Assembly: GCA_012797505.1 (NCBI GenBank)
Contig: JAAZOZ010000424.1
Span: forward strand, 1 to 56,622
DNA length: 56,622 bases
DNA from: Smithella sp.
GTDB taxonomy: Bacteria > Desulfobacterota > Syntrophia > Syntrophales > Smithellaceae
Direction: 5' to 3'
Positions 27,621 to 46,507 of the stretch are shown here, in pieces; within the stretch, counting starts at the first letter, position 1; each line of letters opens with the position of its first letter. The translations under genes and the position numbers were made by a program. The notes under the pieces were generated by a model. The model was given only the letters and a program-made list of their open reading frames with translations, did no database searches and was not told the DNA's origin.

Positions 27621-28814
27621 CTACGCAATGACCTTGCTTACGACACCCGCGCCTACGGTCCTGCCGCCTTCGCGGATCGCGAATCGCAGCTGTTCTTCCA
27701 TGGCGATGGGCATAATCAGTTCGACCGTCATTTTAACGTTGTCGCCGGGCATGACCATCTCCACGCCTTCGGGCAGCGTCGCGACGCCCGTCACGTCGGT
27801 TGTCCGGAAATAAAACTGCGGACGATACCCGGAAAAGAACGGCGTATGCCGGCCGCCTTCTTCCTTCGTCAGGACGTAAACCGCCGCTTCAAATTTGGTG
27901 TGGGGCGTAATCGAAGCGGGTTTGGCCACGACCTGCCCTCGTTCCACTTCTTCACGCTTGATGCCGCGCAGCAGCAACCCGACGTCGTCGCCCGCCCGGC
28001 CTTCGTCCAGGGTTTTGCGGAACATTTCCACGCCCGTCACAACCGTTTTGATCGTGGGACGAATGCCGATGATTTCAACTTCTTCACCCACCTTGATGAT
28101 CCCGCGGTCCACACGGCCCGTCACAACGGTGCCGCGGCCGGAAATGGTGAAAACGTCGCCGACCGGCATCAGGAACGGTTTATCGGTGTCGCGCTTCGGC
28201 TCGGGAATGTACTCATCCACCGCTTTCATCAGTTCTTCGATGCATTTCACATCGGGAGACGCCATATCCTCGGCTTCCAACGCTTTGAGCGCCGAACCGC
28301 GGATGATGGGAATCGCGTCACCCGGGAATTCATACTGACTCAGGAGTTCTCTCAATTCGAGTTCAACCAGATCCAACAATTCGGGATCATCAACCAGATC
28401 CACTTTATTCAGGAAAACGACGACGTAGGGAACCTGCACCTGACGGGCAAGGAGGATGTGCTCGCGGGTCTGCGGCATCGGACCATCGGAGGCGGCTACC
28501 ACCAGGATCGTTCCGTCCATGTGGGCGGCGCCGGAAATCATATTTTTGATATAGTCGGCGTGGCCGGGGCAATCCACGTGCGCGTAATGTCTTTTTTCCG
28601 TTTCATACTCCACGTGGGAAATGTTGATGGTAACGCCGCGTTCCTTTTCTTCCGGAGCATTGTCAATCGAATCAAAAGCCCGGAATTCCGCGAAGCCTTT
28701 TTTCGCCAGATATTTGGTAATGGCGGCCGTCAACGTCGTCTTGCCGTGATCCACGTGACCGATGGTCCCTATATTTAAATGCGGCTTTGTCCTTTCAAAT
28801 TTTTTCTTTGCCAT
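27621..28814 (-). CDS. tuf: Elongation factor Tu
   Basis: 397 aa, [28 protein letters not shown]..., with DCPGH and NKVD motifs. Confidence 0.97.
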
Positions 28815-41321: not shown

Positions 41322-41398
41322 TGGCAGGCCAGGAGGGACTTGAACCCCCAGCATCCGGATTTGGAGTCCGGCGCTCTATCCATTAGAGCTACTGGCCT
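41322..41398 (-). tRNA. tRNA-Trp (anticodon CCA)
   Basis: Manual cloverleaf: acceptor AGGCCAG/CTGGCCT, anticodon loop CUCCAAA, T-loop TTCAAGT, encoded CCA end. Confidence 0.9.
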
Positions 41399-41412
41399 GC
41401 GTCAATTCTCCG

Positions 41413-41562
41413 CTACTTGGTTTCTCTGTGCAGCTTGTGTCCGCGGCAAAACTTGCAGTACTTCTTCATTTCCAGGCGGTTTTGCATGGTGCGCTTGTTT
41501 TTCGTCGTCGTGTAATTTCTCTGCTTGCATTCCGTACAGGCCAAAATAATGTTGTTTCTCAT
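41413..41562 (-). CDS. rpmG: 50S ribosomal protein L33 (Zn-binding form)
   Basis: This ORF is not in the track (49 aa). It reads [49 protein letters not shown] and has a GGAG RBS. Confidence 0.92.
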
Positions 41563-41575
41563 ACGTCTCCTTCAC

Positions 41576-41651
41576 TGGAGCCCACGACCAGGATTGAACT
41601 GGTGACCTCATCCTTACCAAGGATGTGCTCTACCGACTGAGCTACGTGGGC
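41576..41651 (-). tRNA. tRNA-Thr (anticodon GGU)
   Basis: Acceptor GCCCACG/CGTGGGC, anticodon loop UUGGUAA, T-loop TTCAATC, CCA end. Confidence 0.9.
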
Positions 41652-41687
41652 GCGGCGTTACCTGTCTGTCAGCGCCAAAAAGCAACC

Positions 41688-41763
41688 TGGAGCGGGAAAC
41701 GGGATTCGAACCCGCGACCCTCAGCTTGGAAGGCTGACGCTCTAGCCCCTGAGCTACTCCCGC
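41688..41763 (-). tRNA. tRNA-Gly (anticodon UCC)
   Basis: Acceptor GCGGGAG/TTCCCGC, anticodon loop CUUCCAA, T-loop TTCGAAT, CCA end. Confidence 0.9.
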
Positions 41764-41777
41764 TTATTTCAAAAAAC

Positions 41778-41862
41778 TGGTGGAGGGGGGAGGATTCGAA
41801 CCTCCGTAGGCTCCGCCGGCAGATTTACAGTCTGCTCCCTTTGGCCGCTCGGGAACCCCTCC
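41778..41862 (-). tRNA. tRNA-Tyr (anticodon GUA), long variable arm
   Basis: Acceptor GGAGGGG/CCCCTCC, anticodon loop CUGUAAA, 85 nt with an extra arm, CCA end. Confidence 0.9.
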
Positions 41863-41878
41863 AGACATGTGGCTCATC

Positions 41879-41954
41879 TGGAGCTGGCGATGGGACTCGA
41901 ACCCGCAACCTGCTGATTACAAATCAGCTGCTCTACCGATTGAGCTACGCCAGC
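41879..41954 (-). tRNA. tRNA-Thr (anticodon UGU)
   Basis: Acceptor GCTGGCG/CGCCAGC, anticodon loop UUUGUAA, T-loop TTCGAGT, CCA end. There is one C-A mismatch in the T-stem. Confidence 0.85.
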
Positions 41955-42116: not shown

Positions 42117-42665
42117 TTAATCCTTGTCGCTGAAATAATTTGCGGAGAAGATATAAATTTCCGTTTCCTTGTCTTTCCATGCCTTATGAGGCAAACCCGC
42201 TTTGAAGCACGTCTCCCGAAGAAACGTTTCCCGGTCCCAGCCGTACTCGGTCGCCACCTGCGGCAGAAGCAAGCCGGAATTATAGCCTCTGACGACGTAA
42301 AGACCGTGCTTTCCCACCTCAATTTCCTCAATGCTTTGAATCTTCCGCAGAGGGCTCAACACTGATATTTCATACCTTAAGTCCCGTATTTCTTCGCTTT
42401 TTACGGACGGAAAACGCGGATCATGAAAAGCCGCGGCGACCGCCATTTCCTGCACCGTTTCCCCCAGCGGTTTGACCGCCTTGATGTATCCGATGCAGCC
42501 GCGCAGATGCCCCCTTTTTTTCAAGGTGACAAACGCGCCTCTTTTTTCCTTCAGGATGGGCAAATCCATCGATAGCTTGGGCAATTCACGGTTCCCGACC
42601 TTGGCGATAATCGCCCTCTTGGCAATTTCCAAAAGCGTCGTTTTTTCCTGATCTGTCAGTTCCAT
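42117..42665 (-). CDS. AMMECR1-domain protein (AmmeMemoRadiSam system protein A-like)
   Basis: 182 aa with the hallmark GAFVTLKKRGHLRGCIGYI and a C-terminal ...GLLLPQVA... motif. Confidence 0.85.
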   Translation of the reverse strand: MELTDQEKTTLLEIAKRAIIAKVGNRELPKLSMDLPILKEKRGAFVTLKKRGHLRGCIGYIKAVKPLGETVQEMAVAAAFHDPRFPSVKSEEIRDLRYEISVLSPLRKIQSIEEIEVGKHGLYVVRGYNSGLLLPQVATEYGWDRETFLRETCFKAGLPHKAWKDKETEIYIFSANYFSDKD

Positions 42666-42680
42666 ATGAACCTCTTTTTC

Positions 42681-43502
42681 CTATTTGTAATAAACGGCTG
42701 AAGCATAGCCGACCACGGATTGACAATCCCCGGTCACTTCTCCGGAATGGGTGTACTTTAAAACGAGCGAATGAGAAGCGCCCAGACCCCCGGCGGCCAG
42801 TATGGCCACCGCCATTGGACCACCGCCGCAGGCCTCCGTGCGGTCGCGCGCCAGATTCTCCAGAAGACCTTCAGCATCGCTGTCCTGCAGGTGCCTAAGC
42901 GCCACGCCATCCAGCGCTCTTGCTTTTATATCCTCATGAAAATGCGACAGATCGCTGCTGGCGACAATCAGCAGGCGCCGGTTTTTGCCCGCCTGCACGA
43001 TCGCCTTCGCCAAATCCCGGCAGGTTGCGGCGTTCTGATCCCCCATCACCAGCGGAACAAAGGAGAAATCGCCCAGAGCAACCTGCAGGAAAGGAAGCTG
43101 AATTTCCAGGGAATGCTCGCGGGCGTGAGCCGCCGGAAAATCGACAACAATCCCGCTCGCGCGCTTCATTTCTTCCGCCAGTTTTTCATGGACCGGCACC
43201 CGGCCCAGGGGGGTTTCAAAAGCCCCGCCGCCCCAGACGGAAACCCCCGAAAAAGCCACCCGGTGGGAGGGCCCGATCAACACCACTGCGTCGTATTTTT
43301 TGCCCCGGACAAGCTGATAAGCGAAGGCCGCCACCTGACCGGAGTAAATGTAGCCGGCATGAGGCGCGATGAGGCCAACCACCTCTCCGGAAAGCTCCCG
43401 GTCGGGAACCCTGCGGAAATATCCGGCAATGTCCCGCCTCAAAACGGACGGATCGCCGGGATACCAGGAGCCGGCAATGACGGATTTTCGCACGTTGTCC
43501 AT
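42681..43502 (-). CDS. Memo-family protein (AmmeMemoRadiSam system protein B-like)
   Basis: The ATG at 43502 has a GAGG SD. The protein starts MDNVRKSVIAGSWYPGDP and carries the motifs APHAGYIYSG, EHSLEIQLPFL, SSDLSH and ACGGGP. The tracked ORF extends upstream into the preceding gene. Confidence 0.85.
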   Translation of the reverse strand: MDNVRKSVIAGSWYPGDPSVLRRDIAGYFRRVPDRELSGEVVGLIAPHAGYIYSGQVAAFAYQLVRGKKYDAVVLIGPSHRVAFSGVSVWGGGAFETPLGRVPVHEKLAEEMKRASGIVVDFPAAHAREHSLEIQLPFLQVALGDFSFVPLVMGDQNAATCRDLAKAIVQAGKNRRLLIVASSDLSHFHEDIKARALDGVALRHLQDSDAEGLLENLARDRTEACGGGPMAVAILAAGGLGASHSLVLKYTHSGEVTGDCQSVVGYASAVYYK

Positions 43503-43512
43503 TCGCCTGCCT

Positions 43513-45831
43513 CTACTTGAAACGCCAGATGGTTCCCTGCCGGCTGTCCAGAACATCAACGCCGAGCCCGGCCAGCCGGTTTCTCAATAAATCCGCCTCC
43601 TGCCAGAGGCCGGCCTGTCTGGCTTTCTCCCTTTTTTGAATCAGCTCGTCGATCTGCCGATCGTCGATTGGTTTTTTGAAATCCATGACTTGCAAGACGT
43701 CATTGATTTTTTGAAGCGCCTCCAGAATCTTGCGGGCGTCCTCCCCGCTGATTTTTCCCCCGGCCAGGGGCGCATTGACGGCGCCGATAAATTCAAAAAG
43801 CGCCGCCAGTGCGCCGGAAATGTTGAGGTCATCGTCCAGGGCCCGCTCAAAGGCGTGGTTAAGGTCATAAATCAGTTGATCCACCTCCGGAAAATTCGGG
43901 GCGGCATTTCTAATCGTCTGCAATCGGGAAATGAAGGTGTCCATTTTCTTGATGGTGTTTCTGGCCATTTGCAGAGCGCTTACCGAGTAGCTGATCGGCT
44001 TGCGGTAATTCATGCCCAGCAGAAAAAAACGGACATCCCGGCCGCCGTGCCCGCTTTGTCTGAGGTCATCCATCGTTACGATATTATTCAATGACCGGGA
44101 CATCTTCCGGCCGTCCACCAGGATCAATTCGGCCCCGATCCAGTATTTTGCGCCGCTGTGTCCGCAGCAGGCCTTGTTGATGGCGATGAGATTCTCGCAG
44201 TGGGGAAAGGTTTCATCCGCTCCGCTGACATGGATGTCATAGGCCGCGCCCAGATATTTCCGGGAAATGGCCGCGCATTCCAGATGCCAGCCCGGACGGA
44301 CATTGCCCCACTTCGTCTTGGAATAAATCCCCCTTTTCAGCTCTCCCAGACCGGCCCTTTTCAAAAGCGCGAAGTCCGCCGGAGAGTCCTTTTCGTAATC
44401 ATCCAGATCGACCGACCGGCCGGTCCGGGTCTTGGCCGGATCGATATTGGACAGACTGCCGTAGTCTCCCAGTTTGGAGATGTCGAAATAAACGGAGTGC
44501 AGCTTCTCATAGGCATATCCGCGATCGACCAGCTTTTCAACGATCTTGAGCGCGGCGTCAACATCTTCGGAGGCTCTTACGTAGATATTGTCCGGACGGA
44601 TCTGCAAAAACCGGACATCCTCCAGAAATATCCGCAAATATTTATCGGAATAATCCGCGAGATTCATGCCCGCCTTTTCCGACCCCTTGAGAGACTTGTC
44701 GCTGCAATCGACGATATCGACGACATGTTTGACGGCGTAGCCCTTGAAGGTCAGATAGCGGCACAGCAGGTCGGACACCACCAGCCGCCGGTAATTTCCC
44801 AGATGAGGAGCGTCATGAACGGTCGGGCCGCAGGTGCGCAGCCGCACCTCCTTCGGGTTCAGCGGACGGAAAAGCGTTTTCCGGCGCTTGATCGCGTTGT
44901 AAAAGCTGACCGTCGCCAGCTCCTCTTTGACCGCGAACAATTCCGTGCTCAGGTAGCGCTCTCCGCTGTCCGGGAAAATGACCACGATCGTGCCTTCTTC
45001 CATCTGACGGGCCTTCTGGGCCGCGACAAACATGGCCGCGCCGGAGCTCATGCCGGCAAGGATGCCTTCTTCCCGGGCCAGCCGGCGGGACATTTCAAAA
45101 GCGTCTTCGTCCAGGATATTCACCTTTTCATCCAGACGCTTCTTGTCGTAGATCCCGGGGCGGTAGGACTCGCGCATGTTTTTGAGGCCCTGGATCTTAT
45201 GCTGCAGGTAAGGCTCGACGCCGATGATCTGAATGCGGCAATCGAGTTCCTTGAGCCGCTGCGAAATGCCCATCGCGGTGCCGGTGGTTCCGAGCGTGAC
45301 CACCACGGCGGCGATCCGGCCTTGGGTCTGATCCCAGATTTCCTGCGCCGTCCCGAAATAATGGGCCCGGACGTTATCGGGGTTGTTGAATTGATCGGTG
45401 CCGAAATACTTTTCCGGGTTTTCCCGAAGCATCCGGTAGGCGACCTCGATGGCGCCGTCCGTCCCCTGCGCCGCGGGGGTAAAGATCAGCTCCGCGCCCA
45501 TCGCCCGCAGAATTTTTTTGCGCTCTTCGCTGGCCGCTTCGGACATGGTCAGGCACAGCTTGTAGCCTTTCGCCGCGGCCACCATGGCCAGTCCGATGCC
45601 GGTATTGCCGCTGGTCGCCTCCAGAATGATCCTGCCGGGTTTCAGGTCGCCCCTTTTTTCGGCGTTTTCGATCATGCTGAGCGCCGTTCGGTCTTTAATG
45701 GATCCCCCGGGATTCGCGGACTCCAGCTTGGCCAGAATCGTGACCTTTTTATTCGGATTCAGCTTCGAGATTTCCACCAGCGGCGTGTTGCCGATGCGAT
45801 CCATAATGCTTTTATACACGTTCATCATCAC
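43513..45831 (-). CDS. Fusion protein: PLP-dependent cysteine synthase (CysK/CysM fold) + full-length cysteinyl-tRNA synthetase-like enzyme
   Basis: 772 aa. Residues 1-300 carry GGSIKDR (PLP lysine), TSGNTG, GTTGT, SSGAA and PDSGERYLST. Residues ~305-772 carry CGPTVHDAPHLGNYRR (HIGH region), RPGWHLEC, FPHCENL, KMSRS and a C-terminal helical end ...QGTIWRFK, collinear with E. coli CysRS. Confidence 0.85.
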   Translation of the reverse strand: MMMNVYKSIMDRIGNTPLVEISKLNPNKKVTILAKLESANPGGSIKDRTALSMIENAEKRGDLKPGRIILEATSGNTGIGLAMVAAAKGYKLCLTMSEAASEERKKILRAMGAELIFTPAAQGTDGAIEVAYRMLRENPEKYFGTDQFNNPDNVRAHYFGTAQEIWDQTQGRIAAVVVTLGTTGTAMGISQRLKELDCRIQIIGVEPYLQHKIQGLKNMRESYRPGIYDKKRLDEKVNILDEDAFEMSRRLAREEGILAGMSSGAAMFVAAQKARQMEEGTIVVIFPDSGERYLSTELFAVKEELATVSFYNAIKRRKTLFRPLNPKEVRLRTCGPTVHDAPHLGNYRRLVVSDLLCRYLTFKGYAVKHVVDIVDCSDKSLKGSEKAGMNLADYSDKYLRIFLEDVRFLQIRPDNIYVRASEDVDAALKIVEKLVDRGYAYEKLHSVYFDISKLGDYGSLSNIDPAKTRTGRSVDLDDYEKDSPADFALLKRAGLGELKRGIYSKTKWGNVRPGWHLECAAISRKYLGAAYDIHVSGADETFPHCENLIAINKACCGHSGAKYWIGAELILVDGRKMSRSLNNIVTMDDLRQSGHGGRDVRFFLLGMNYRKPISYSVSALQMARNTIKKMDTFISRLQTIRNAAPNFPEVDQLIYDLNHAFERALDDDLNISGALAALFEFIGAVNAPLAGGKISGEDARKILEALQKINDVLQVMDFKKPIDDRQIDELIQKREKARQAGLWQEADLLRNRLAGLGVDVLDSRQGTIWRFK

Positions 45832-45924
45832 CCTACGCTCCGTTCGTCAATCCTTCATCATTCCTTTTTGAAACAAGGATTGCGCAGGCGCCTGAAAAAG
45901 TCATCCCGGAGGAAATATAACGGA

Positions 45925-46332
45925 TCAGCTGTCCATCTTGGGCAGAGAAATTTTTATAAACGAAACCCCTTCTTCTTTCAAGACCGTTTCTTCCCGGGGG
46001 GTCGTCGTTCCTTTGATATTGCGCCTCTCTTCATCGCCCGCGTGGATCTTCAGCGCAACTTCGGCAAATTTGTTTCCGACATCTTCAAAGTTGTTTTCAA
46101 GGTAGCGGTGCAACGACTGAAGCACCTGCCCCCGGGAAACGTCCTTGTTCCGGGGCGGCTTGGAATCCTTCCCCATAATCGTCAGGGAAGAAGGCGCGAT
46201 TTCCACGCTGGAACTGTTGCAGACGGGACAGCAGACCAGACGCCCGGCATTCTGTTCTATCCAGGCCTGGCGGTCTTTAAACCAGCCTTCAAAGGTGTGT
46301 CCGTTTTCACATTTGATGTCGTAAATAATCAC
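45925..46332 (-). CDS. DUF1178-family zinc-ribbon protein
   Basis: A likely GTG start at 46332 gives (M)IIYDIKCENGHTFEGWF...LVCCPVCNSS.... The longer tracked ORF would overlap tRNA-Pro. Confidence 0.6.
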   Translation of the reverse strand: MIIYDIKCENGHTFEGWFKDRQAWIEQNAGRLVCCPVCNSSSVEIAPSSLTIMGKDSKPPRNKDVSRGQVLQSLHRYLENNFEDVGNKFAEVALKIHAGDEERRNIKGTTTPREETVLKEEGVSFIKISLPKMDS

Positions 46333-46430
46333 CGCTCGGGCGCTTTCCTTGTTAAAAACGGCTAAAAATCCGTTGGAAATAAAAACATGTGGACATTTCG
46401 CGATAAATTTTATAACGTCGCTTCCCGTGT

Positions 46431-46507
46431 CGGGATGTGGCCCAGCTTGGTAGGGCACTGCGTTCGGGACGCAGGAGTCGCGCGTTCAAATCGCGCCATC
46501 CCGACCA
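46431..46507 (+). tRNA. tRNA-Pro (anticodon CGG)
   Basis: Acceptor CGGGATG/CATCCCG, anticodon stem CTGCG/CGCAG with loop UUCGGGA, T-loop TTCAAAT, CCA end, followed by T7. Confidence 0.9.

What the first reader, a model, noticed from the sequence alone, without database searches (positions are those of the whole stretch)
43513..45831. End-to-end fusion of a cysteine synthase with a motif-divergent, full-length cysteinyl-tRNA synthetase
**What the sequence shows.**
- One uninterrupted 772-aa frame joins a complete PLP-dependent CysK/CysM-fold domain to a complete class-I CysRS-like enzyme.
- The synthase domain carries GGSIKDR, TSGNTG, GTTGT, SSGAA and PDSGERYLSTELF.
- The CysRS-like part carries VSFYNAIKRRKTLFRPL...CGPTVHD...RPGWHLEC...KMSRS...TIWRFK, collinear with E. 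coli CysRS as I recall it.
- The linker is only about 5 residues.
- The junction codons AAA GAG GAG CTG (about 44917-44928) look like a relic Shine-Dalgarno followed by a lost start. That suggests two formerly adjacent genes fused.

**How the CysRS half differs from canonical CysRS.**
- The HIGH motif reads HLGN (TrpRS-like Asn).
- KMSKS reads KMSRS.
- The FPHHENE zinc-site segment of E. coli reads FPHCENL. In my recollection this loses the Glu238 ligand and gains an adjacent Cys.

**Possible interpretations.**
- Direct channelling of newly made cysteine to tRNA-Cys.
- A CysRS paralog acting as a cysteine ligase, as MshC and BshC are.
- A link to the PLP-dependent cysteine persulfide chemistry reported for CARS.

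I do not know of a characterised CysK-CysRS fusion.
Basis: partly seen in the sequence, partly recalled or inferred. Interest (0 to 1): 0.7.

Follow-up and report, generated by a model that had tools for sequence, protein, structure and literature searches.

The report
Cysteine synthase fused to CysRS paralog
A real, transcribed gene of an anaerobic-digester Smithellaceae bacterium joins an intact cysteine-making enzyme to a diverged copy of the enzyme that loads cysteine onto tRNA; relatives keep the tRNA-binding residues even where the loading chemistry is destroyed, so the second half may sense or couple to tRNA-Cys rather than act as an ordinary synthetase.

Summary
One uninterrupted frame on the minus strand (43513-45831; likely start ATG 45828, 771 aa) encodes a complete CysM-type cysteine synthase, an 8-residue linker and a full-length CysRS-like protein. 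Four independent assemblies, two of them metatranscriptomes, span the junction without indels.

The architecture is widespread and old:
- 80 of 80 inspected species-representative genomes of Smithellaceae, Syntrophales, Desulfobacterales and Thermodesulfobacteriota carry it.
- 66 further metagenome loci carry it fused.
- 13 loci carry it split into abutting cysM and cysRS-like genes.

Motif corrections:
- HLGN is normal: 41 of the 54 closest canonical CysRS have HxGN.
- KMSRS is a true family signature, one of six universal replacements of canonical invariants.
- FPHCENL belongs to a clade-specific remodelling of the cysteine pocket (T68V/I, E238V/I/L, H235C).

Across 161 members the synthase catalytic motifs stay near-invariant wherever they were scored (the 81 species-representative fusions). 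The CysRS half ranges from near-canonical to lacking HIGH, KMSKS and even the zinc site. The anticodon-contact residues (E. coli R427, W432, D436, R439, D451) are kept everywhere.

Best reading: a tRNA-Cys-binding accessory or regulatory para-synthetase on an active cysteine synthase. Main rival: a still-active bifunctional enzyme. I could not test for a second canonical cysS. I found no paper characterising this.

The parts
43513..45831 (-). Whole fusion ORF. 772 aa from GTG 45831; probable start ATG 45828, giving 771 aa; stop codon at 43513-43515.
44932..45804 (-). CysM-type cysteine synthase domain (aa 10-300). PLP-Lys K46 lies in GGSIKDR (45688-45708). TSGNTG is at 45598-45615, GTTGT at 45277-45291 and SSGAA at 45034-45048.
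   Evidence: Pfam PALP 243 bits. NCBIfam cysKM score above its cutoff. End-to-end alignment to CysM structures 2jc3/2bht. Motifs are near-invariant in 81 fusions. Coordinates checked by translation.
44908..44931 (-). Eight-residue linker VKEELATV. It contains the SD-like AAAGAGGAGCTG; no in-frame start codon follows.
   Evidence: The linker is variable between clades.
43960..44907 (-). CysRS-like Rossmann/CP catalytic body (aa 309-624). C334 corresponds to E. coli C28. HLGN is at 44794-44805. V374 (E. coli T68) is at 44710-44712. WHLEC is at 44275-44289, FPHCENL at 44188-44208 and KMSRS at 44092-44106.
   Evidence: Pfam tRNA-synt_1e scores 252 bits here, against 390-496 for canonical CysRS. 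Alignments to 8qhp, 3tqo, 1li5 and 6ujd. Invariant-column analysis.
43687..43959 (-). Helical stem-contact / DALR_2 part of the anticodon-binding region (aa 625-715).
   Evidence: Pfam DALR_2 at residues 660-713
43516..43686 (-). C-terminal CysS_C anticodon-binding domain (aa 716-772). R738, W743, D747, R750 and D762 (43546-43620) correspond to E. coli R427, W432, D436, R439 and D451.
   Evidence: Pfam CysS_C. Residue mapping from the alignment. Residue roles from PMC13449415. Conserved in every clade.

Best explanation
The gene encodes an active CysM-type cysteine synthase permanently joined to a diverged CysRS paralog. I call this the 'KMSRS type'. The property of that paralog conserved across the whole family is binding of tRNA-Cys through its anticodon, together with a zinc-thiolate pocket, rather than aminoacylation.

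I propose that the C-terminal half is an accessory or regulatory para-synthetase. It would read tRNA-Cys status (uncharged tRNA-Cys or Cys-tRNA-Cys), and possibly cysteine and ATP, and couple that signal to the cysteine synthase on the same polypeptide. The analogies are HisZ on HisG and the HisRS-like domain of GCN2.

**Shown here.**
- The fusion is real.
- The synthase catalytic residues are intact.
- The paralog signature exists.
- The catalytic motifs decay in graded steps across relatives.
- The anticodon-contact residues are kept universally.
- The paralog is always partnered with cysM, either fused or abutting.

**Inferred.**
- That tRNA-Cys is actually bound.
- That binding regulates or couples to the synthase.
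- That a separate canonical cysS exists in the genome.

In this particular clade the ATP loops (HxG[N/S], KMSRS) are still strictly conserved, so some residual or altered ATP-dependent chemistry is not excluded.
For: 1. The synthase half is catalytically complete and highly conserved. K46, SGNTG, GT[TS]GT and SSGAA are present in 79-81 of 81 fusions. It is 84-85% identical within Smithellaceae, against 75-77% for the CysRS-like core.
2. The CysRS half is a distinct paralog.
   - It replaces residues that are at least 93% invariant in 54 canonical CysRS: W177 to L/F/M in 161 of 161; G of GRPGW to V/I/L/M/A/T in 161 of 161; S210 to A in 157 of 161; Q of ENEIAQ to I in 156 of 161; K269 to R in 96 of 96.
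   - Its Pfam catalytic-domain score is 252 bits, against 390-496 for canonical enzymes.
   - The NCBIfam cysS score sits right at the cutoff.
3. In the window's clade (63 sequences) the cysteine pocket is remodelled: T68 to V/I in 63 of 63, E238 to V/I/L in 63 of 63, H235 to C in 56 of 63, N66 to D in 42 of 63, and the His of YWxH to N/G/S in 62 of 63. That is hard to reconcile with a housekeeping CysRS that relies on this pocket for specificity.
4. 65 of 161 members have lost HIGH and/or KMSKS while keeping the zinc triad (63 of 65), T68 and W205. Desulfovibrio ferrophilus-type members have lost the zinc site too.
5. The anticodon contacts R427, W432, D436, R439 and D451 are conserved in every grade.
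6. The paralog is never seen without cysM. It is fused in about 147 loci. In all 13 unfused cases a cysK/M gene lies immediately upstream on the same strand.
7. No cysteine- or sulfur-specific neighbours are shared between clades, so the two-part unit is self-contained.
Against: - In the window's clade HxG[N/S] and KMSRS are invariant (62-63 of 63), whereas they drift freely in other clades. This argues that ATP binding, and perhaps catalysis, is still under selection here.
- The protein still passes the cysS equivalog cutoff, marginally.
- It sits in a translation-gene neighbourhood, rlmB ... secE-nusG-rplKAJL-rpoBC. From memory, this resembles the position of housekeeping cysS in Firmicutes.
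- I could not show that a canonical cysS coexists in any Smithellaceae genome.
- There is no direct evidence for allostery or for tRNA binding.
- The roles of T68 and of the zinc ligands are from my memory of Newberry et al. 2002. That paper was not held in the library.
Confidence: 0.45

Rival explanations
1. A truly bifunctional enzyme. The N-terminal domain makes L-cysteine. The C-terminal half, atypical but active, activates it with ATP and loads tRNA-Cys. Free cysteine is therefore kept low and passed directly into translation. In Syntrophales it could be the only CysRS, or an auxiliary one. In other lineages that have a redundant cysS, the synthetase motifs later decayed.
For: - The full CysRS architecture and collinearity are present.
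- HxG[N/S], KMSRS, the zinc triad C28/C209/H234, W205 and all anticodon contacts are invariant in the clade.
- HxGN is normal for CysRS.
- The score is above the TIGR00435 cutoff.
- The gene lies in a housekeeping translation neighbourhood and is transcribed.
- A probably independent Nanoarchaeota fusion (P0124 / MFW6014224.1) keeps 98% of the canonical invariants, including KMSKS. So coupling a working CysRS to CysM does occur.
Against: - 14 of 62 canonical near-invariant positions are replaced. They include the second Lys of KMSKS and several positions that, from memory, line the cysteine pocket: T68, E238, H235 and N66.
- The same module is retained under purifying selection without catalytic motifs in 65 of 161 relatives, so a non-catalytic role must exist.
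- In the least-derived grade the fourth HIGH position is Leu in 28 of 33 members.
Confidence: 0.3
2. A neofunctionalised ATP-dependent enzyme. The remodelled pocket of the Syntrophales/Smithellaceae clade would bind a different thiol substrate or acceptor. Possibilities include a cysteine derivative or persulfide, or ligation of cysteine to a non-tRNA acceptor as MshC and BshC do. The partner CysM domain would supply the substrate.
For: - The ATP loops are conserved while the amino-acid pocket is specifically and consistently changed within the clade: T68V/I, E238V/I/L, H235C, N66D, and His to N/G/S.
- MshC is a precedent for a CysRS paralog with a new acceptor.
Against: - The anticodon-binding domain and its contact residues are fully conserved. 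MshC lacks them.
- The MshC HMM scores 177 against a cutoff of 485.
- No thiol-cofactor biosynthesis genes are conserved nearby.
- The pocket remodelling is confined to one clade of the family.
Confidence: 0.1
3. An assembly or annotation artefact: a missed stop codon or frameshift joining two ordinary adjacent genes.
For: Split, abutting cysM / cysRS-like gene pairs do exist in some metagenome contigs.
Against: - Four independent assemblies, including two metatranscriptomes, span the junction with no indel.
- The identical protein is indexed in 223 blocks of the collection.
- The frame is uninterrupted across the junction in all 80 species representatives, which include long-read complete chromosomes.
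Confidence: 0.01

Closest known systems
Canonical bacterial/archaeal cysteinyl-tRNA synthetase (E. coli CysS, PDB 1LI5/1U0B; best PDB match 8QHP)
   Same: - Same four-part architecture: Rossmann fold with CP insertion, stem-contact/DALR helices, and C-terminal anticodon domain.
- Collinear over residues 3-461 of the E. coli enzyme.
- Keeps C28, W205, C209 and H234, an HxGN motif, and the anticodon contacts R427, W432, D436 and R439.
   Different: - It carries an N-terminal CysM domain.
- KMSKS reads KMSRS.
- Six family-wide replacements of canonical invariants, plus a clade-specific pocket remodelling (T68V, E238L, H235C and others).
- Only 77% of 62 canonical invariant positions are kept.
- The Pfam score is about 60% of a canonical enzyme's.
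CysM / O-acetylserine sulfhydrylase B (Salmonella 2JC3, E. coli 2BHT)
   Same: The N-terminal 300 residues align end to end (263 bits). The PLP-Lys, Asn loop, phosphate loop and SSGAA motifs are all present.
   Different: It scores below the curated cysM equivalog cutoffs (374.6 against 394). It also carries a 470-aa C-terminal CysRS-like extension.
HisZ-HisG (a HisRS paralog acting as regulatory subunit of ATP phosphoribosyltransferase), and the HisRS-like domain of GCN2. Both comparisons are from my own knowledge.
   Same: - An aaRS paralog is physically tied to an enzyme, or kinase, that controls supply of the cognate amino acid.
- Catalytic motifs are dispensable in many members.
- Ligand or tRNA binding is the retained property. 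This is inferred here.
   Different: - HisZ lacks the anticodon-binding domain, whereas this module keeps it.
- Here the partner is the last enzyme of the pathway and is usually fused.
- A regulatory role has not been demonstrated.
MshC (cysteine ligase of mycothiol synthesis) and CysRS* of Desulfobacterales (SelC*-specific)
   Same: Both are CysRS paralogs with non-standard roles.
   Different: - Both lack the anticodon-binding domain, which this protein keeps.
- The MshC HMM scores far below its cutoff.
- There is no selB*/selC* linkage and no tRNA gene for Cys nearby.
Nanoarchaeota CysM-CysRS fusion (P0124, NCBI MFW6014224.1) and Desulfovibrio ferrophilus 'cysteine synthase' WP_126381224.1 (P0125)
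   Same: Both have the same two-domain order, PALP followed by tRNA-synt_1e.
   Different: - P0124 keeps 98% of the canonical CysRS invariants, including KMSKS. Its CysM half is no closer to the query than free-standing CysMs are, so it is probably an independent fusion.
- P0125 belongs to the same bacterial family. It has lost C28, HIGH, WH, C209 and KMSKS, and keeps 50% of the invariants.

Membership tests
Cysteine synthase CysK/CysM (PLP fold type II, TIGR01136 cysKM) | PALP domain covering the whole fold, with a score above the curated subfamily cutoff | tested here: met
   PF00291 at residues 10-288, 243 bits. TIGR01136 scores 369.6 against a cutoff of 344.15.
Cysteine synthase CysK/CysM (PLP fold type II, TIGR01136 cysKM) | Catalytic motifs: PLP-Lys (SxKDR), Asn loop TSGNTG, phosphate loop GTxGT, and Ser of SSGAA | tested here: met
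   All are present, aligned to CysM structures, and near-invariant in 81 fusions.
CysM equivalog (TIGR01138 / NF008735) | Score above the curated equivalog cutoff | tested here: not met
   374.6 against 394.2, and 354.6 against 413. The domain is CysM-like but is not called an equivalog.
Cysteine synthase CysK/CysM | O-acetylserine or O-phosphoserine sulfhydrylase activity | not testable with these tools
   Needs an enzyme assay.
Canonical CysRS (TIGR00435 cysS) | Architecture of catalytic domain, DALR_2 and CysS_C, with a score above the equivalog cutoff | tested here: met
   TIGR00435 scores 343.9 against a cutoff of 340, which is marginal.
Canonical CysRS (TIGR00435 cysS) | HIGH signature (HxGH or HxGN) | tested here: met
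   HLGN. Among 54 close canonical CysRS, 41 have HxGN and 13 have HxGH. PDB 6ujd has HLGN.
Canonical CysRS (TIGR00435 cysS) | KMSKS signature with its second Lys | tested here: not met
   KMSRS. The second position is Lys in 54 of 54 canonical enzymes and Arg in 96 of 96 family members that keep the motif.
Canonical CysRS (TIGR00435 cysS) | Zinc/cysteine pocket: C28, C209, H234, E238, T68 and W205 (roles recalled from Newberry et al. 2002) | tested here: not met
   C28, C209, H234 and W205 are kept. E238 is Leu, T68 is Val and H235 is Cys. All three positions are invariant in the 54 canonical enzymes.
Canonical CysRS (TIGR00435 cysS) | Anticodon-contact residues R427, W432, D436 and R439 | tested here: met
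   R738, W743, D747 and R750.
Canonical CysRS (TIGR00435 cysS) | Being the cell's working, usually only, tRNA-Cys charging enzyme | not tested
   No whole-genome scan was possible. No second CysRS gene was found in 895 kb of held loci or in loci L083-L162, but these are only local windows.
MshC-type cysteine ligase (TIGR03447) | Score above the equivalog cutoff, and absence of the anticodon-binding domain | tested here: not met
   177.2 against 485.1. DALR_2 and CysS_C are present.
CysRS* (SelC*-dedicated paralog of Desulfobacterales) | No anticodon-binding domain, and linkage to selB*/selC* | tested here: not met
   The anticodon-binding domain is present. The neighbours are rlmB, gspF-like, DUF1178, Memo and AMMECR1. 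The family is described in PMC5389517.
Regulatory aaRS paralog / pseudo-synthetase (HisZ-like logic) | Obligatory physical association with a biosynthetic enzyme of the cognate amino acid | tested here: met
   Fused, or immediately adjacent to cysM, in every locus that is not cut by a contig end.
Regulatory aaRS paralog / pseudo-synthetase (HisZ-like logic) | Catalytic signature motifs dispensable | tested here: inconclusive
   They are dispensable in 65 of 161 family members, but conserved in the window's own clade.
Regulatory aaRS paralog / pseudo-synthetase (HisZ-like logic) | Coexistence with a canonical synthetase, and allosteric effect on the partner enzyme | not testable with these tools
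   Needs a whole-genome scan and biochemistry.

The most novel reading that the evidence does not exclude
A tRNA-gated cysteine synthase. In this reading a CysRS-derived para-synthetase reads the anticodon of tRNA-Cys, and through its zinc pocket the charging state or free cysteine. It then switches the fused CysM on or off. That would be a protein-level counterpart in bacteria of T-box or GCN2-type sensing, and it would be widespread in anaerobic Desulfobacterota.
Probability: 0.3. Interest if true: 0.8.

Novelty: new variant of a known kind. Interest (0 to 1): 0.6.

Why it matters
**For annotation.**
- Genome pipelines name these proteins 'cysteine--tRNA ligase' or 'cysteine synthase' interchangeably.
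- From my own knowledge, TIGR00435 is used as a phylogenetic and completeness marker.
- A paralog sitting right at the cutoff can therefore mislead annotation and metabolic reconstruction of syntrophs that matter in anaerobic digesters.

**For biology.**
- The family offers a natural series. It runs from a near-canonical synthetase, through a version with a remodelled pocket, to a motif-dead pseudo-enzyme. Throughout, the anticodon contacts are preserved and the cysteine synthase is kept as a partner.
- That pattern points to a tRNA-dependent, non-aminoacylating role tied to amino-acid synthesis, which has few bacterial precedents.

**If it turns out to be the only CysRS of Syntrophales.** It would show that an essential synthetase can tolerate loss of several residues thought to be universal. 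It would also show that cysteine synthesis can be hard-wired to tRNA charging.

Tried and rejected
- **Second canonical cysS in the same genome.** I could not do this. The protein search lists only the best 120 hits, which reached only 75% identity, so a query from outside the family could not reach a Smithellaceae cysS. Local tblastn with six canonical CysRS against all 82 held sequences (81 loci plus the window), both strands, found only the fusion gene. The same held for L083-L162 and for the window itself.
- **Cluster names for 20 representatives.** I hoped to pick a Desulfobacterota canonical CysRS as bait. The names were uninformative.
- **Literature.** Nine full-text searches and several papers found no description of a CysM-CysRS fusion. 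Supplementary files of two candidate papers were not held. Newberry et al. 2002 was not held.
- **AlphaFold2 on a 36-sequence alignment.** Mean pLDDT was 63.6 and pTM 0.46, with the CP domain and the KMSKS loop below 50. It was too poor for any statement on interdomain geometry, so I did not send it to fold search.
- **Internal translation start after the SD-like GAGGAG.** There is none in frame.
- **tRNA-Cys gene next to the fusion.** None was found in the 81 loci held at that point or in the window.
- **Conserved sulfur or cysteine partner genes (cysE, a CysO/ThiS-like carrier, SepRS/SepCysS).** None were found. The neighbours are clade-specific housekeeping genes.
- **tRNA-dependent cysteine synthesis on the CysM domain.** I considered this and set it aside. 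The invariant carboxylate-binding Asn loop argues for a free amino-acid substrate (inference).
Full report

Yes. The minus-strand frame 43513..45831 is open for 772 codons from a GTG. Database copies of the same protein begin at the next codon, ATG 45828, giving 771 aa.

Pfam places four domains:
- PALP at residues 10-288 (243 bits)
- tRNA-synt_1e at 321-624 (252 bits)
- DALR_2 at 660-713
- CysS_C at 726-770

NCBIfam gives three relevant scores:
- cysKM subfamily 369.6, cutoff 344
- cysM equivalog 374.6, below its cutoff of 394
- cysS equivalog 343.9, just above its cutoff of 340

The N-terminal 300 residues align end to end with Salmonella and E. coli CysM, over residues 5-293 of 303. Residues 309-772 are collinear with E. 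coli CysRS residues 3-461, and best matched by 8qhp at 320 bits. The linker is VKEELATV, 8 residues.

**2. Is the junction an artefact?**

No.
- Contigs of two DNA runs and two metatranscriptome runs, from digesters and sludge, each cover 43400-45950 in one piece. They show 2-3 substitutions and no indel.
- The identical protein is indexed in 223 blocks of the assembly collection.
- In all 80 species-representative genomes returned by the GTDB scan, the frame runs without a stop across the domain junction. One low-coverage MAG, L058, is broken much further downstream, near residue 654. The set includes complete long-read chromosomes of 4.78 and 5.22 Mb.

The organism is a Smithellaceae bacterium (names) that is common in anaerobic digesters and wastewater.

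**3. How widespread is it?**

- The 80 loci span Smithellaceae/Smithella (70-93% identity), Syntrophus/Syntrophales (59-63%), Desulfobacterales including Desulfosarcina and Desulfatirhabdium (53-55%), and Thermodesulfobacteriota (52%).
- An exhaustive search of 50%-identity representatives finds about seven further full-length fusion clusters.
- These include Desulfovibrio ferrophilus WP_126381224.1, which is annotated 'cysteine synthase', and a Nanoarchaeota protein.
- A metagenome scan seeded with an apparently free-standing relative returned 66 more fusions and 13 unfused genes.

**4. The three motif deviations.**

*HLGN.* This is not a deviation. Of the 54 closest canonical stand-alone CysRS representatives, all of which have KMSKS, 41 have HxGN and 13 have HxGH. 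The solved CysRS 6ujd has HLGN.

*KMSRS.* This is real and diagnostic. The second position is Lys in 54 of 54 canonical enzymes, and Arg in 96 of 96 family members that keep the motif.

*FPHCENL.* This is real but confined to the Syntrophales/Smithellaceae clade. Other clades have the canonical FPHHENE. The new Cys is Gly, Ser or Ala in 7 of 63 clade members, so it is not an obligatory replacement ligand.

**5. The CysRS half is a separate paralog family.**

I took the 62 alignment columns that are at least 93% invariant in the 54 canonical enzymes, and asked how many each group retains:

| Group | Canonical invariants retained |
|---|---|
| Nanoarchaeota fusion | 98% |
| Thermodesulfobacteriota-type fusions | 90% |
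| Smithellaceae | 77% |
| Syntrophales | 78% |
| Desulfobacterales | 75% |
| D. ferrophilus type | 50% |

Six replacements are shared by essentially all bacterial members:
- W177 to L/F/M (161 of 161)
- Gly of GRPGWH to V/I/L/M/A/T (161 of 161)
- S210 to A (157 of 161)
- a Gly of HGGGxD to S (140 of 161)
- Gln of ENEIAQ to I (156 of 161)
- K269 to R

Pfam catalytic-domain scores fall in step:

| Protein | tRNA-synt_1e bits |
|---|---|
| Canonical CysRS | 390-496 |
| Unfused KMSRS type (P0139) | 299 |
| This window | 252 |
| P0122 | 216 |
| P0125 | 88 |
| P0129 | 63 |

**6. Four grades of decay, with one constant.**

Among 161 aligned members:
- **Grade A** (33 members; Thermodesulfobacteriota-type fusions and the split pairs) differs from canonical CysRS mainly by the six signature changes. 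It has Leu at the fourth HIGH position in 28 of 33.
- **Grade B** (63 members; Syntrophales and Smithellaceae, including this window) keeps HxG[N/S] and KMSRS in 62-63 of 63. It remodels the amino-acid pocket:
  - T68 to V/I (63 of 63)
  - E238 to V/I/L (63 of 63)
  - H235 to C (56 of 63)
  - N66 to D (42 of 63)
  - Tyr two residues before C28 to H/R (56 of 63)
  - His of YWxH to N/G/S (62 of 63)
- **Grade C** (65 members; Desulfobacterales and marine-sediment types) has destroyed HIGH and/or KMSKS, for example DLAN, NLSH, HLAH and KKVDEKGD. It keeps the zinc triad C28/C209/H234 in 63 of 65, T68 in 64 of 65, and W205 in all.
- **Grade D** is a further group outside this alignment: P0125, P0127 and P0129. 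These have also lost C28, WH and C209.

In every grade the residues that contact the GCA anticodon in the E. coli complex are conserved. These are R427, W432, D436 and R439 (citing 1U0B), plus D451. Here they are R738, W743, D747, R750 and D762.

The synthase half stays catalytically complete in the 81 fusions examined. It is the more conserved half.

**7. The two parts are never apart.**

All 13 unfused CysRS-like genes have a cysK/M-like gene immediately upstream on the same strand. It abuts or overlaps by a few bases. In L088, for example, cysM occupies 514-1578 and the CysRS-like gene 1582-2994.

The CysM halves of all bacterial fusions are closer to the query (57-65% identity) than any free-standing CysM representative (57% or less). 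The Nanoarchaeota CysM half is only 49% identical. The bacterial family therefore looks like one ancient association, and the archaeal fusion looks independent.

**8. Genomic context.**

In Smithellaceae and Syntrophales the order is pyrF, rlmB, a T2SS-F-like gene, DUF1178, the fusion, Memo/AMMECR1, tRNA genes, then secE-nusG-rplKAJL-rpoBC. Other clades have different, equally housekeeping neighbours such as tmk and surE. No conserved cysteine, sulfur-carrier or SepRS/SepCysS partner appears. No tRNA-Cys gene is nearby.

**9. Interpretation.**

Two things are shown. The synthase is intact. The conserved property of the C-terminal half across the family is the anticodon-binding apparatus, with the thiol-binding zinc pocket kept in most members, rather than the ATP-activation motifs. 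A non-aminoacylating role linked to tRNA-Cys must therefore exist in at least the 65 Grade C members and in Grade D. By parsimony it probably exists throughout the family.

My preferred model (confidence 0.45) is an accessory or regulatory para-synthetase that couples cysteine synthase to tRNA-Cys or cysteine status. The analogies, HisZ-HisG and the HisRS-like domain of GCN2, are from my own knowledge.

The main rival (0.30) is that in this clade the protein is still an active, atypical CysRS charging freshly made cysteine. In favour of that rival: the ATP loops are strictly conserved here, the protein marginally passes the cysS model, and the gene lies among translation genes. Against it: 14 of 62 universal positions are changed, several of them in the cysteine pocket.

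A neofunctionalised ATP-dependent enzyme with another thiol substrate or acceptor (0.10) would fit the pocket remodelling. It does not explain the conserved anticodon contacts.

**10. What remains untested.**

I could not determine whether a canonical cysS coexists in Smithellaceae genomes. That single result would largely decide between the first two models. The functional roles I assign to T68 and to the zinc ligands are from my memory of Newberry et al. 2002, which was not available. The AlphaFold model was too poor to use.

**11. Novelty.**

Reviews of aaRS paralogs list only CysRS* and MshC for CysRS. None of the searched literature describes this fusion. Databases merely auto-name it.

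It is best filed as a new, uncharacterised variant of two known kinds: an aaRS paralog, and an aaRS-like regulator of amino-acid biosynthesis. It is not an ordinary cysS, because it fails the KMSKS and cysteine-pocket criteria. It is not an MshC or a CysRS*.

Noticed in passing
P0124 (NCBI MFW6014224.1, Nanoarchaeota archaeon), found: A 768-aa CysM-CysRS fusion in a DPANN archaeon. Its CysRS half is fully canonical (HIGN, FPHHQNE, KMSKS; 98% of canonical invariants). It is probably an independent fusion and probably a genuinely bifunctional enzyme.
   Followed up: partly
L083-L094, L128 (JGI metagenome contigs): Split versions of the unit: a cysM-like gene followed at once by a KMSRS-type CysRS-like gene, with stop and start abutting or overlapping. 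The organisms are unknown.
   Followed up: partly
P0143, P0159: Other cysteine-pathway fusions appeared among the representatives. These have two PALP (cysteine synthase) domains followed by a serine acetyltransferase (SATase_N plus Hexapep), in proteins of 960-995 aa.
   Followed up: no
P0178: An 858-aa protein has a DALR_2 domain at residues 317-374, ahead of a full tRNA-synt_1e domain at 411-722, with three matched stretches. It could be a tandem or partially duplicated CysRS, or two genes merged by a calling error.
   Followed up: no
window 42117-43556 (-): Memo-like (AmmeMemoRadiSam system protein B) and AMMECR1 genes lie directly downstream of the fusion, on the same strand. This is conserved in Smithellaceae and Syntrophales, and they are fused in L044. 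No radical-SAM partner gene is adjacent in the window.
   Followed up: no
window 45925-46458 (-) and 46431-46507 (+): A DUF1178 zinc-ribbon-like gene lies immediately upstream of the fusion. It is conserved in at least 19 loci. The tRNA-Pro(CGG) gene on the opposite strand overlaps the long stop-free frame that contains DUF1178. The called DUF1178 gene is shorter, at about 135 aa.
   Followed up: no
L058 (Syntrophus aciditrophicus-labelled MAG, contig coverage about 8x): The fusion frame breaks near residue 654, although tblastn matches continue to residue 770. This is probably a frameshift error in a low-coverage assembly.
   Followed up: no
window 45050-45078 and 45594-45615, run X5: A 1731-nt, high-depth contig from one digester run matches only two stretches of 22-29 nt in the CysM part and is reported as a 'joint'. 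It is most likely a related cysteine synthase from another organism, not a deletion variant.
   Followed up: no
window 41322-41954 (-): A tRNA cluster, Thr(TGT)-Tyr-Gly(TCC)-Thr(GGT), and further downstream Trp, lies upstream of secE-nusG. No tuf copy sits between tRNA-Thr and tRNA-Trp in that gap; tuf is at 27621-28814.
   Followed up: no
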